NCBI GenBank assembly: GCA_030264375.1
Contig: JASCQW010000162.1
Location: 94,311,352-94,375,351, forward strand
Reading direction: 5' to 3'
DNA length: 64,000 bases
Source of the DNA: Carcharhinus longimanus
Lineage: Eukaryota
Positions 45,001-48,000 of this stretch are shown piece after piece. Position numbers: made by a program. Every line of letters starts with the position of its first letter. Position 1 is the stretch's first letter.

Positions 45001-48000
45001 GGAGTTGCACATGATACATTAGCAATGAACAAAAGCAGCAGGGTGAAAAAAAGCCTTTAACTTACAATGCAAGATGGAGTGATAAACTGTTTATGGTGTA
45101 TCCGAACATTGTCCAAAGGTGCCAGAATAGCAGATGAGTAGCATTGATAGGAGTTGAGATAGAGGAGAGGACTGTTCCAGTTGTTGCTTTTACACCTATG
45201 TGGACAGCGGATTTCTTCAAATGACAGCTCAGATGCTGACTTTAAATGTTTTGTATGAATGTCTGTCACACTGGTCTTCTGGCTATTCAGATGTTCAGGC
45301 AGCATATGTGCTCTAGATGTTGAAATCCTTGGTGTAGAGTTAAACACTTCTGATTTATAGAGGCATCTAAAGCAATGCTTCAAAATGGCAATTATATGCT
45401 GTACAATGGCCCTTACCATTGCATGAACCTTATTATTACTGTGGCCTACTTCTGTCTGCAAACGCAAAAGCATATCATTAGCTGGGATAGAAGAGGATCT
45501 CCTCTCCCTCTGAGGACCCATCCTTGAAATCCTCTCACTCCTGTATGACTATATTAAAAAGAAAGACTCGTATTTATGTAGTGCTTTTCATGACCATTGG
45601 ACATCTCAAAGTGCTTCACAGCTCAGTAAGTACTTTTGAAGCTGTAATGTAAGAAGAACACTAACTAATTTGCACTCAACAAACTTCCATAAACAGCAAT
45701 CTGATAATGACCAGATAATCTGTTTTTTTGTGATGTTGATTGAGATAGATTTTGGCCAGGACACCAGGGATAGCTCTCCTGTTTTTCTTTGAAGGAGTGC
45801 AATGGGATCTTTTACATCCACCTGAGCAGCTAGATGTAGCCTTGGCTTAAGAGCTCATCCAAGTGACGACACCTCCAACAGTGCAGTGTTCGCCAGTACT
45901 ACACTGGATATTTTGTACTCAAGCCCTTAAGTGTGACCTGAACCCAGAACCCTGGTGCGTGTGCTACCTACTGAGCATGGCAGACATAAACAAAAAATAA
46001 AATAAAGAAATGGTGTTGGAACAGCTGCAATAATGCATATCTAGAAATGATTACAAACTAGTAATAATATCAGCATTTTGTCAACTGAAATTTAAAAGCA
46101 GGTTGTGATCACCCCAGGGCATCTGCTATCTCTATAATACCTGTGGAAATTATTTATTTTCATAGCGGGGATCCTTATTTAGTTTCAATGCTTCTGAAGT
46201 GTCATGTGATAATCTCCACCTTGAACTATTTATGATTAGAATGCAGCCATTAGACCATGAATAGATTAATTATAAGAAAATAATGCAATTTGTCATGAAA
46301 ACTGCATTTTGCAGGATAGTTATGTTTTAAAATATACCCTTTAATTTAAGGTGAATTAGATCCTTCTGAAAAAGAGGGATGGTGAATTCTGAATAAACAC
46401 CTCTGTTCAGAGCCAGGTTCATGTCATCTTGTTGCCATGGAAAGAAAAACACGAGCTGAAACACATTAATGCACCAGGTGCAAGCTTTAACACCTTTATT
46501 CGATATCTTGTAGAAAAGGGAGAGTTGTTTTGAGAGAGTGGAGACAAAGAAGCTACTGCTGTGGTGAAGCAGGTGAATTGTTTTGTGTTAACAACCAAGC
46601 AGGATGTTTGTGAGAGTTATGTTTCTGTTAAAAAGAAGGGAACAGCATTGCTGAGTCTCTTGGAGATTGAGAAATTTACCATAGTCGAGGGGTGCCTTGT
46701 TGGTGATGATTGGATCTGAAAATCTCAGGCTGAGTGGAATAATTATCAAAAGAAACAAAGTTTCAACCTCCTTTGCTGGAGAGAAGTGAACCTGTTGGTG
46801 AGCTATGATACATTATGGGATTGTTCCTGTAATGCTACATATTTGTCAGAAGCAAGGTGTTGCATAAGAGTATTTGAGACATATTTGAGTTGTGTCAGTT
46901 AATGCTCGGCCTTTTGGCTAAGATCAAGTGTAGTATTGACATGGTGCACTTGGGTGAAGTCATTAGGTTACATTTTAGTTTCATTTGAAGTAATTTTTTA
47001 AAGTGGCATCTTGGCCTTTTGGCTAAGATGCAAATTAGATCAAGCCTTGGAGGAGGAGCTATGCCTATTCCAAACAGCTTGGATCATGTAGATCAAGCCC
47101 AAGACAGGAGGTGAGAGCCCTGTCTTGTCAGCTTGGATCGGGAATNNNNNNNNNNNNNNNNNNNNNNNNNNNNNNNNNNNNNNNNNNNNNNNNNNNNNNN
47201 NNNNNNNNNNNNNNNNNNNNNNNNNNNNNNNNNNNNNNNNNNNNNNNNNNNNNNNNNNNNNNNNNNNNNNNNNNNNNNNNNNNNNNNNNNNNNNNNNNNN
47301 NNNNNNNNNNNNNNNNNNNNNNNNNNNNNNNNNNNNNNNNNNNNNNNNNNNNNNNNNNNNNNNNNNNNNNNNNNNNNNNNNNNNNNNNNNNNNNNNNNNN
47401 NNNNNNNNNNNNNNNNNNNNNNNNNNNNNNNNNNNNNNNNNNNNNNNNNNNNNNNNNNNNNNNNNNNNNNNNNNNNNNNNNNNNNNNNNNNNNNNNNNNN
47501 NNNNNNNNNNNNNNNNNNNNNNNNNNNNNNNNNNNNNNNNNNNNNNNNNNNNNNNNNNNNNNNNNNNNNNNNNNNNNNNNNNNNNNNNNNNNNNNNNNNN
47601 NNNNNNNNNNNNNNNNNNNNNNNNNNNNNNNNNNNNNNNNNNNNNNNNNNNNNNNNNNNNNNNNNNNNNNNNNNNNNNNNNNNNNNNNNNNNNNNNNNNN
47701 NNNNNNNNNNNNNNNNNNNNNNNNNNNNNNNNNNNNNNNNNNNNNNNNNNNNNNNNNNNNNNNNNNNNNNNNNNNNNNNNNNNNNNNNNNNNNNNNNNNN
47801 NNNNNNNNNNNNNNNNNNNNNNNNNNNNNNNNNNNNNNNNNNNNNNNNNNNNNNNNNNNNNNNNNNNNNNNNNNNNNNNNNNNNNNNNNNNNNNNNNNNN
47901 NNNNNNNNNNNNNNNNNNNNNNNNNNNNNNNNNNNNNNNNNNNNNNNNNNNNNNNNNNNNNNNNNNNNNNNNNNNNNNNNNNNNNNNNNNNNNNNNNNNN

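What the first reader, a model, noticed from the sequence alone, without database searches (positions are those of the whole stretch)
46905..47145. U2 snRNA-headed element with a duplicated U2 5' fragment
Seen: a 32-nt match to the U2 5' end stops abruptly just after the branch-point-pairing GTAGTA, and a second U2 5' piece occurs ~100 bp later, embedded in non-U2 sequence. Known: Keno (Tx1 clade) and Utopia retrotransposons insert specifically in U2 at about this position, and crocodilian SINEU elements have U1/U2-derived heads. Inference: this is the 5' end of a U2-targeting retroelement that moved together with its target fragment, or a shark U2-headed SINE. The doubled head is unusual.
Basis: partly seen in the sequence, partly recalled or inferred. 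Interest (0 to 1): 0.65.

Follow-up and report, generated by a model that had tools for sequence, protein, structure and literature searches.

The report
U2 snRNA-headed retroposon fragment
A 240-base stretch starts with a perfect copy of the first part of the U2 splicing RNA, cut at the spot where known U2-targeting jumping genes insert, so it is probably the front end of such a mobile element, though the rest is lost in an assembly gap.

Summary
Window 46905-46936 matches the U2 snRNA consensus, positions 8-39, at all 32 bases (Rfam U2: 43.2 bits, below the 46-bit cut-off, E 2.5e-5 for the window). A second U2 stem-loop-I piece lies 105 nt downstream.

It is not a U2 gene. Nt 1-7 are missing, nothing after nt 39 is U2, and the 3' part alone gives no U2 3'-domain match. 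It is also not a short retropseudogene flanked by target-site duplications.

The U2 match ends within one base of the nt 38/39 site where Keno (Tx1 clade) and Utopia LINEs insert (PMC4640811, PMC6136364). The body holds three related hairpins. The first uses U2 nt 27-35 as one arm, and the inner stems covary. The second head differs from U2 at four positions, and each change adds a base pair.

Best reading (confidence about 0.5): this is the 5' end of a plus-strand, U2-headed Tx1/Keno-type element or a SINEU-like derivative, sitting outside any U2 gene. Its 3' end lies in the gap at 47146-48003.

Doubled heads are typical of crocodilian SINEU-1, so that feature is not unusual. Genome-wide copy number, the decisive test, could not be run.

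The parts
46905..46936 (+). Head 1: exact copy of U2 snRNA nt 8-39 (stem-loop I plus the branch-point-pairing GUAGUA). Both ends are sharp: nt 1-7 are absent, and the match stops at the Keno/Utopia site.
   Evidence: 32 of 32 bases match the RF00004 consensus. Site position from PMC4640811 and PMC6136364.
46924..46953 (+). Hairpin unit 0. U2 nt 27-35 (46924-46932) pair with the element's own bases 46945-46953 (9 bp, two of them G-U), so the hairpin bridges the U2/non-U2 junction.
   Evidence: -18.4 kcal/mol on the + strand (3 of 200 shuffles fold as well) against -9.9 on the - strand (16 of 200). Alignment.
46992..47003 (+). AATTTTTTAAAG: a U-run between hairpins that cmscan lines up with the U2 Sm-site region. 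It is also an oligo-T run of the kind reported inside most SINEU families.
   Evidence: alignment, but there is no independent U2 3'-domain hit. The SINEU oligo-T remark is in the Discussion of PMC4494074.
47006..47031 (+). Head 2: a diverged copy of U2 nt 4-29 folded into an uninterrupted 11-bp hairpin with a UUUU loop. It has 4 differences from the U2 consensus (positions 6, 10, 28, 29), and each creates a Watson-Crick pair.
   Evidence: -19.7 kcal/mol, z -6.2, 0 of 200 shuffles. The pair-by-pair reading against the consensus and structure lines printed is my own.
47038..47085 (+). Hairpin unit A: outer stem GATCAAGC/GCTTGGATC with its own inner stem.
   Evidence: (repeats D4, D5).
47091..47139 (+). 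Hairpin unit B: the same outer stem as unit A, with a different but fully paired inner stem (covariation). The contig ends 6 nt later.
   Evidence: 18 pairs, 91.5% of 47 cells paired, 6 pairs changed on both sides.
47146..48003 (.). An 858-N gap that hides the rest, and probably the 3' end, of the element.
48004..48420 (-). Neighbour, probably not part of the element: a 5'-truncated LINE reverse-transcriptase fragment on the opposite strand whose 3' part runs into the gap.
   Evidence: RVT_1, E 1.5e-9. (894 relatives at E<=0.001; of the 120 best listed, most carry RVT_1 plus PF09004; best named is a Hypanus sabinus protein at 60% identity). (homology starts at ORF residues 24-37, i.e. 48420-48381).

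Best explanation
This is the 5' end of a plus-strand retroposon whose head is the 5' fragment of U2 snRNA. It is either a Tx1-clade (Keno-like) LINE lineage that inserts, or once inserted, at nt 38/39 of U2 genes, or a short non-coding derivative of one, comparable to crocodilian SINEU.

Inferred mechanism:
1. An element sitting in a U2 gene has no promoter of its own and is transcribed from the U2 promoter.
2. Its RNA therefore begins with U2 nt 1-38.
3. When that RNA is reverse-transcribed, the head travels with it.
4. Repeated rounds and partial duplications stack heads. The outermost head is fresh and identical to U2, while the inner ones drift and survive only as RNA hairpins.

This copy lost the first 7 nt (5' truncation) and lies outside any U2 gene. 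Its 3' part is hidden in the gap.

What is shown and what is inferred:
- Shown: the exact U2 8-39 fragment, the break at the known insertion site, the second diverged head, and three related hairpins with compensatory changes.
- Inferred: mobility, co-transcription, the Tx1 partner, and the existence of a family.
For: 1. All 32 bases match U2 nt 8-39, with abrupt ends on both sides. That is a breakpoint pattern, not decay.
2. The match ends at nt 39, within 1 nt of the shared Keno/Utopia site (PMC4640811 section 6; PMC6136364 passage). The arrangement is that of a 5' junction in sense orientation.
3. Head 2 (47006-47031) is an older U2 nt 4-29 copy. All 4 of its differences from the consensus create pairs, while the inherited G-U is kept.
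4. Units 0, A and B share AGATCAAG...CTTGG. Unit 0 uses U2 nt 27-35 as its 5' arm. Of 18 pairs, 6 change on both sides and 91.5% of 47 cells pair; 17 of 500 shuffles reach this, and slid controls give 0-3 such pairs. The head is therefore integrated into an evolved structure.
5. The junction hairpin folds far better on the + strand (-18.4 against -9.9 kcal/mol). The whole 248 nt has z -5.0, with 0 of 200 shuffles as stable.
6. There is precedent. SINEU-1 shows recurrent U1/U2 5' additions and partial duplications; Tx1-11_Crp, in a group that clusters with Keno, carries a U2 head; SINEU-3 keeps the 5' 32 bp of U2 (PMC4494074).
7. Tx1 L1-like repeats are reported in whale shark and Callorhinchus (passage in PMC8455134).
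Against: - Only one copy is seen. blastn of 45501-47145 against the 64 kb window finds no second copy of the body.
- Protein-level proxy searches with the 62-aa ORF on the minus strand over 46898-47083 found nothing. This is weak evidence, because such ORFs are rarely predicted.
- No Tx1-type endonuclease or RT, no poly-A tail and no target-site duplication is visible. There is no U2 nt 39-58 anywhere in the window (0 matches at up to 3 mismatches).
- A full-length LINE cannot fit. Pfam finds nothing downstream on the + strand, and a prokineticin-like exon lies at about 49.5 kb.
- The neighbouring RT is on the other strand, so 46937-47145 could be its 3' UTR.
- The structure used was derived from unit B itself, and only 3 sequences were compared. 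The shuffle control is reached by 17 of 500.
- The taxon was not established.
Confidence: 0.5

Rival explanations
1. The stretch 46937-47145, or even 46876-47145, is the 3' untranslated region of the minus-strand LINE whose RT fragment lies at 48004-48420. On this reading the U2 pieces are antisense inserts in, or next to, that 3' end.
For: - The LINE runs into the gap heading towards 47145.
- Full-length relatives have only about 150 residues after the FKFLG motif, so about 450 nt of coding sequence plus a 3' UTR would fit the 858-N gap and beyond.
- Units A and B fold about as well on the minus strand (-16.4 and -24.2 kcal/mol).
- An 8-mer, GAGTATTT, occurs at both 46868 and 48467 and could be a target-site duplication for a 1.6-kb insertion.
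Against: - The 8-mer match is at chance level: about 1 is expected for the 311 x 221 nt compared (my arithmetic). It also lies 47 nt outside the last detectable LINE homology.
- tblastn finds no LINE coding remnant in 46800-47145; the best is a 19-residue match with E 4.9.
- The junction hairpin is much weaker on the minus strand.
- A break at exactly nt 39 of U2 has no explanation here. The known U2-specific LINEs sit in sense orientation.
- No other copy of this supposed 3' end lies in the window.
Confidence: 0.17
2. It is a one-off chimeric retrocopy. A LINE reverse transcriptase switched template from some other RNA onto U2 snRNA, leaving a U2 5' fragment fused to unrelated sequence. There is no family and no U2 targeting.
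For: Template switching onto snRNAs is documented for L1 and is proposed as the source of SINEU heads (Discussion of PMC4494074). Only one copy is seen, and the head is 5'-truncated as retrocopies often are.
Against: A single switch does not explain a second, diverged U2 head 105 nt inside, or three paralogous hairpins whose first member uses the U2 bases as an arm. It also does not explain why the U2 part stops at nt 39, the Keno/Utopia site. The only visible LINE is in the opposite orientation.
Confidence: 0.13
3. It is a U2-derived structured RNA gene or U2 variant: a transcript of about 190 nt that keeps stem-loop I and the branch-point region, a Sm-like U-run and 3' hairpins. Alternatively it is a U2-derived tandem repeat that continues into the gap.
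For: - cmscan aligns 46898-47096 to the full U2 model (positions 1-192) at 43.2 bits, only 2.8 below the cut-off. The U-run falls at the Sm position and hairpins at the stem-loop III and IV positions.
- The fold is strong (z -5.0).
- The contig breaks within repeated hairpin units, as happens at repeats.
Against: - The 3' part alone gives no U2 3'-domain hit. The only U2 match there is stem-loop I again.
- Nt 1-7 are missing.
- I saw no snRNA-type upstream promoter element by eye. That rests on a recalled consensus and no tool test was available.
- Tandem Repeats Finder reports nothing in 46600-47145 at minimum score 30, and the spacings (105, 116, 53 nt) show no single period.
Confidence: 0.1
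4. It is a plain truncated U2 retropseudogene, or a DNA-level remnant of a broken U2 gene, lying by chance next to unrelated hairpin-rich sequence.
For: Tailless, 3'-truncated snRNA retropseudogenes are common in mammals (Discussion of PMC4494074).
Against: - The fragment starts at nt 8, not nt 1.
- No direct repeat flanks it. The longest shared word between the 42-nt flanks is 5 nt, and 1791 of 2000 shuffles do as well.
- The downstream sequence is related to the head.
Confidence: 0.05

Closest known systems
Keno (Tx1 clade, apurinic-endonuclease LINEs specific for U2 snRNA genes) and its crocodilian relatives Tx1-Mar, e.g. Tx1-11_Crp, which carries a U2 head
   Same: The U2 5' fragment lies directly upstream in sense orientation. 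The break is within 1 nt of the nt 38/39 insertion site. A U2-derived head carried at the element's 5' end away from U2 genes is what Tx1-11_Crp shows.
   Different: No Tx1 ORF is visible and there is no U2 3' half downstream. Sequence similarity to any Keno consensus could not be tested, because no Repbase or Dfam library was on hand. This copy is not in a U2 gene.
SINEU (snRNA-headed SINEs of crocodilians; Kojima 2015, PMC4494074)
   Same: It has a short U2-derived head not starting at nt 1, a non-coding body, internal oligo-T, and stacked or partly duplicated U2 pieces as in SINEU-1. The 32-nt U2 5' piece recalls SINEU-3's 5' 32 bp.
   Different: SINEU was found only in crocodilians. Poly-A tail, length, copy number and target preference are unknown here. 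The body, with its three U2-seeded hairpins, is not described for SINEU in the text I read; figures and supplements were not visible.
Utopia (restriction-like-endonuclease LINEs specific for the same U2 site)
   Same: It uses the same insertion site at nt 38/39.
   Different: Per section 6 of PMC4640811, 5' U2 flanks were seen for only 11 of 65 families, and 5' boundaries vary. Passages seen list hosts in Amoebozoa, oomycetes and animals (arthropods, echinoderms, nematodes, reptiles), and a find for 'shark' and 'Callorhinchus' gave 0 occurrences. No RLE or RT is visible here.
U2 spliceosomal RNA gene (Rfam RF00004)
   Same: Nt 8-39 are identical to the consensus, and a full-length model alignment is possible at 43.2 bits.
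   Different: The score is below the gathering cut-off. The 5' 7 nt, the stem-loop II region and any recognisable 3' domain are absent.

Membership tests
U2 snRNA gene (RF00004) | Reaches the curated Rfam gathering score | tested here: not met
   43.2 bits against 46. There is no hit at gathering threshold.
U2 snRNA gene (RF00004) | Complete 5' end (nt 1-7) and a 3' domain (Sm site, stem-loops III and IV) recognisable on their own | tested here: not met
   Nt 1-7 are replaced by GTTAATG. In 46940-47145 the only U2 match is stem-loop I again, at 15.6 bits.
Keno / Tx1-clade U2-specific LINE | 5' junction: U2 nt 1-38 directly upstream, in sense orientation | tested here: met
   The U2 match ends at nt 39 (46936) and non-U2 sequence follows on the same strand. 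The fragment itself starts only at nt 8.
Keno / Tx1-clade U2-specific LINE | 3' junction: U2 from nt 39 (TCTGTTCTTATCAG...) downstream of the element | tested here: not met
   0 matches in the window at up to 3 mismatches. No other U2 hit appears in the whole-window E-value scan. The gap could hide one.
Keno / Tx1-clade U2-specific LINE | Encodes an apurinic-like endonuclease and a Tx1-clade reverse transcriptase | tested here: inconclusive
   No ORF is present in 46937-47145. Of the 136 window ORFs of 74 or more residues scanned against Pfam, the only RT is on the minus strand at 48004-48489, and its relatives are of the RVT_1 plus PF09004 type. 858 nt are hidden.
Keno / Tx1-clade U2-specific LINE | Nucleotide similarity to a Keno or Tx1 consensus | not testable with these tools
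   No eukaryotic repeat library or genome collection was available.
SINEU | 5' head derived from U1 or U2 snRNA | tested here: met
SINEU | Stacked or partly duplicated snRNA pieces (SINEU-1 type) | tested here: met
   The second head lies at 47006-47031, and AGATCAAG-seeded units at 47038-47085 and 47091-47139.
SINEU | Short non-coding retroposon with a 3' poly-A tail | not testable with these tools
   The 3' end lies in the 858-N gap. The visible 241 nt have no long ORF on the + strand.
SINEU | Multi-copy family with shared head-body junction and target-site alterations | not testable with these tools
   There is 1 copy in the 64 kb window. Protein-level proxy searches gave 0 hits. No genome of the source organism was on hand.
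Tailless or truncated U2 retropseudogene | Starts at U2 nt 1 and is flanked by target-site duplications | tested here: not met
   It starts at nt 8. The longest shared word between the flanks is 5 nt, matched or beaten by 1791 of 2000 shuffles.
snRNA-LINE chimeric retrocopy (template switch) | snRNA piece fused in the same orientation to the 3' part of a LINE or mRNA with a tail | tested here: inconclusive
   The only visible LINE piece is in the opposite orientation. What follows 47145 is unknown.

The most novel reading that the evidence does not exclude
A retroposon lineage in a cartilaginous fish that lives off U2 genes. It is transcribed from the U2 promoter, so every generation gets a fresh U2 nt 1-38 head. 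Earlier heads persist inside the element and have been reshaped by compensatory change into a series of U2-seeded hairpins, with a Sm-like U-run between them. The RNA would then imitate an snRNA (cap, Sm core, nuclear re-import) to reach its Tx1-type partner and target. This would be the first snRNA-headed retroposon outside crocodilians, and a readable record of successive head captures.
Probability: 0.15. Interest if true: 0.65.

Novelty: new member of a known kind. Interest (0 to 1): 0.4.

Why it matters
snRNA-headed retroposons (SINEU) are reported from crocodilians only. How they are transcribed, and why U1/U2 pieces are added to their 5' ends again and again, is an open question in the paper that defined them (PMC4494074).

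A U2-headed element in a distant vertebrate, whose head ends at the Keno/Utopia insertion site, would tie such heads to co-transcription with a U2 target gene. Template switching would then not be needed to explain them, and the idea could be tested by collecting the family's copies.

With one truncated copy beside a gap, this is a lead, not a result.

Tried and rejected
- **Rfam at gathering threshold.** No hit anywhere in the window. The U2 signal shows up only in E-value mode.
- **Internally deleted U2, as in SINEU-3.** Rejected, because the 3' part alone gives no U2 3'-domain match.
- **Other copies in the window.** None found.
- **Tandem array.** Tandem Repeats Finder reports nothing.
- **Rest of U2 downstream.** 0 matches.
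- **Target-site duplication around the 32-nt piece.** None found.
- **Target-site duplication for a composite insertion that includes the LINE.** One 8-mer, at chance level.
- **LINE coding remnants in 46800-47145.** None significant.
- **Copy number by proxy.** I searched the protein collections with the 62-aa minus-strand ORF that spans the element. Both searches gave 0 hits. This does not count as evidence of single copy, because such ORFs are seldom predicted.
- **Naming the organism.** The closest RT relatives (up to 77% identity) are unnamed short contigs, which I did not trace. The best named one is from a stingray at 60% identity.
- **Literature searches for an snRNA-headed SINE outside crocodilians.** The listings, and a find for 'SINEU', 'snRNA' and 'shark' in PMC7245038 and PMC5786205, showed none. 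'L1-Tx1' with 'shark' found 0 papers.
- **Not seen.** The supplements and figures of PMC4494074 and PMC4640811, which hold the head alignments and junction sequences, may bear on whether this body resembles any described element.
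Full report
**Observation**

Window 46905-46936 reads CTCGGCCTTTTGGCTAAGATCAAGTGTAGTAT. In the cmscan alignment to Rfam RF00004 (U2 spliceosomal RNA) these 32 bases match the consensus at positions 8-39 without a mismatch. The seven bases before them do not match U2 nt 1-7, and similarity stops after GUAGUAU.

The hit scores 43.2 bits, just under the family's 46-bit gathering score. It is therefore absent at gathering threshold. It is still far from chance, with E 2.5e-7 locally and 2.5e-5 for the whole window on both strands. The head alone gives 27.9 bits.

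A second piece, 47010-47029, equals the first at 19 of 20 bases, 105 nt downstream. On its own it is read as U2 positions 7-26 (15.6 bits, E 0.34).

**What it is not**

- *Not a U2 gene.* The 5' seven bases are missing and everything after nt 39 is non-U2. The 3' part (46940-47145) searched alone gives no match to the U2 3' domain. No U2 nt 39-58 occurs anywhere in the window at up to 3 mismatches.
- *Not a short, duplication-flanked retropseudogene.* The two 42-nt flanks share no word longer than 5 nt, and 1791 of 2000 shuffles do as well.
- *Not a tandem array.* Tandem Repeats Finder reports nothing in 46600-47145.

**Anatomy**

The 248 nt from 46898 fold far better than shuffles (-90.7 kcal/mol, z -5.0, 0 of 200). 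Four hairpins account for this.

1. *Unit 0 (46924-46953).* It pairs U2 nt 27-35 with the element's own bases 46945-46953, across the U2/non-U2 junction. It folds at -18.4 kcal/mol on the plus strand and only -9.9 on the minus strand.
2. *Head 2 (47006-47031).* This is an 11-bp hairpin with a UUUU loop (-19.7 kcal/mol, z -6.2). Read against the consensus and structure lines printed, it corresponds to U2 nt 4-29 with four differences (positions 6, 10, 28, 29). Each difference turns an unpaired or mismatched position into a Watson-Crick pair, while the G-U pair inherited from U2 stem I is kept. That reading is my own.
3. *Units A (47038-47085) and B (47091-47139).* They have identical outer arms (repeats D4 and D5) but different, fully paired inner stems.

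All three units begin with AGATCAAG, which is U2 nt 24-31 in unit 0, and close with CTTGG. Counting unit B's structure on the three-unit alignment gives 18 pairs with 91.5% of 47 cells paired, and 6 pairs changed on both sides. Of 500 shuffles, 17 reach these values, and partners slid by 1-3 columns give 0-3 such pairs. Two caveats apply: only three sequences were compared, and the structure was taken from one of them.

An AATTTTTTAAAG run (46992-47003) sits between unit 0 and head 2.

The U2 head is therefore not an accidental neighbour of the body. The body is built from older, reshaped copies of the same head region.

**The break point**

In section 6 of PMC4640811, U2 sequence downstream of Utopia insertions starts at nucleotide 39, and nt 1-38 are expected upstream. 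[quoted passage not shown]

A passage of PMC6136364 gives the Keno 3' target as TCTGTTCTTATCAGTTTAAT, which is U2 from nt 39 on.

Here the U2 match ends at nt 39, so the break lies within one base of that site. The orientation is that of a 5' junction.

**Precedent**

I read the Results and Discussion of PMC4494074. The relevant points are:

- Crocodilian SINEU-1 subfamilies arose by recurrent 5' additions of U1 or U2 pieces and by partial duplications.
- SINEU-3 keeps the 5' 32 bp of U2.
- Tx1-11_Crp, a Tx1 LINE in a group that clusters with Keno, carries a U2 head.
- SINEU families contain oligo-T runs, have no known promoter, and may depend on flanking promoters.
- No SINEU was detected outside crocodilians.

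A doubled head is thus the rule in that class, not an oddity.

My searches found no snRNA-headed SINE reported outside crocodilians (listings; finds).

**Surroundings**

The contig ends at 47145, six bases after unit B, and 858 N follow. I did not fill them.

After the gap, on the minus strand, lies a 5'-truncated LINE reverse-transcriptase fragment.

- Pfam gives RVT_1 at E 1.5e-9. It is the only RT among the 136 window ORFs of 74 or more residues that I scanned.
- It has 894 relatives at E<=0.001. Of the 120 best listed, most carry RVT_1 plus PF09004. The best named one is a Hypanus sabinus protein at 60% identity.
- Unnamed short contigs reach 77% identity. I did not trace them.
- Homology is detectable from 48010 to about 48381-48420.
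- Relatives have about 150 residues after the FKFLG motif. The LINE's coding end and tail probably lie in the gap, but its 3' UTR could reach 47145 and beyond.

tblastn finds no coding remnant of it in 46800-47145 (best E 4.9 over 19 residues).

An 8-mer, GAGTATTT, at 46868 and 48467 could mark a composite insertion. About one such match is expected by chance, and it lies 47 nt outside the detectable homology.

Downstream on the plus strand there is no Tx1-like ORF, and a prokineticin-like exon lies near 49.5 kb. A full-length LINE headed by this U2 piece therefore cannot be present. At most it is a short element or a fragment.

**Explanation**

Most likely (about 0.5), this is the 5' end of a plus-strand U2-headed retroposon. 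It would be a Keno-type Tx1 lineage, or a short non-coding derivative of the SINEU kind, whose RNA starts in the U2 gene it sits in and so carries U2 nt 1-38 with it.

The outer head is identical to U2 because it is the most recent capture. The inner heads are older and survive as selected hairpins.

This copy is 5'-truncated by seven bases and lies outside any U2 gene.

Mobility, the Tx1 partner, co-transcription and family status are all inferred.

**Rivals**

| Rival | Confidence |
|---|---|
| The stretch is the 3' UTR of the minus-strand LINE | 0.17 |
| A one-off template-switch chimera | 0.13 |
| A U2-derived structured RNA gene or repeat | 0.10 |
| A plain U2 pseudogene remnant | 0.05 |

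**What could not be done**

Genome-wide copy number is the decisive test, and no eukaryotic DNA collection was available.

As a weak stand-in, I searched the protein collections with the 62-residue minus-strand ORF that spans the element. Both searches gave 0 hits.

No repeat library (Repbase, Dfam) was on hand. The figures and supplements of the two Kojima papers, which hold the junction alignments, were not visible.

The hairpin repeat at 10391-10479 and the SINE at about 44433-44800 look elasmobranch to me, but that is recall only.

**Verdict**

- If real, the element is a new member of a known kind.
- Interest is 0.4, because it rests on one truncated copy next to a gap.

Noticed in passing
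window 49463-49690 (+): A prokineticin-like exon (Pfam PF06607, E 0.004, below the cut-off). By eye on the sequence and the frames, the cysteine-rich frame meets a TGA and the similarity continues in another frame. It may be a pseudogene, or the assembly may have errors next to the 100-N gap at 49362-49461. The U2-headed element lies about 2.4 kb upstream of it.
   Followed up: partly
window 45060-45548 (-): A fragment of a Harbinger/PIF-type transposase (DDE_Tnp_4, E 8.7e-5, 22.6 bits against a 24.8 cut-off), about 1.4 kb upstream of the U2 head. One crocodilian Tx1 family prefers Harbinger transposons as targets. No link was shown here.
   Followed up: no
window 10391-10479 (both strands): A near-perfect hairpin of about 89 nt (arms of about 38 nt). 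It gives sub-threshold Rfam hits on both strands to unrelated hairpin families. It looks like a palindromic repeat element.
   Followed up: partly
window 44433-44800 (+), interrupted by the gap at 44508-44607: A SINE-like element with a tRNA-like head (GGCACGGTAGCACAGTGGTTAGCAC...). The family assignment is from recall only.
   Followed up: no
window 45665-45781; 11987-12076 (-); 56194-56308 (-): Three copies of an interspersed repeat of about 100 nt at 73-78% identity. In addition, 45501-45539 resembles 44824-44862 at 90%.
   Followed up: no
window 46868-46875 and 48467-48474: A shared 8-mer, GAGTATTT, brackets the U2 element, the gap and the LINE fragment. It could be a target-site duplication of a composite insertion, but about one such match is expected by chance.
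   Followed up: partly
window 46871-46889 (+): TATTTGAG occurs twice, 11 nt apart, just upstream of the U2 head. Read on the minus strand, it could be a short repeat tail of the kind some LINEs end with. This was not tested.
   Followed up: no
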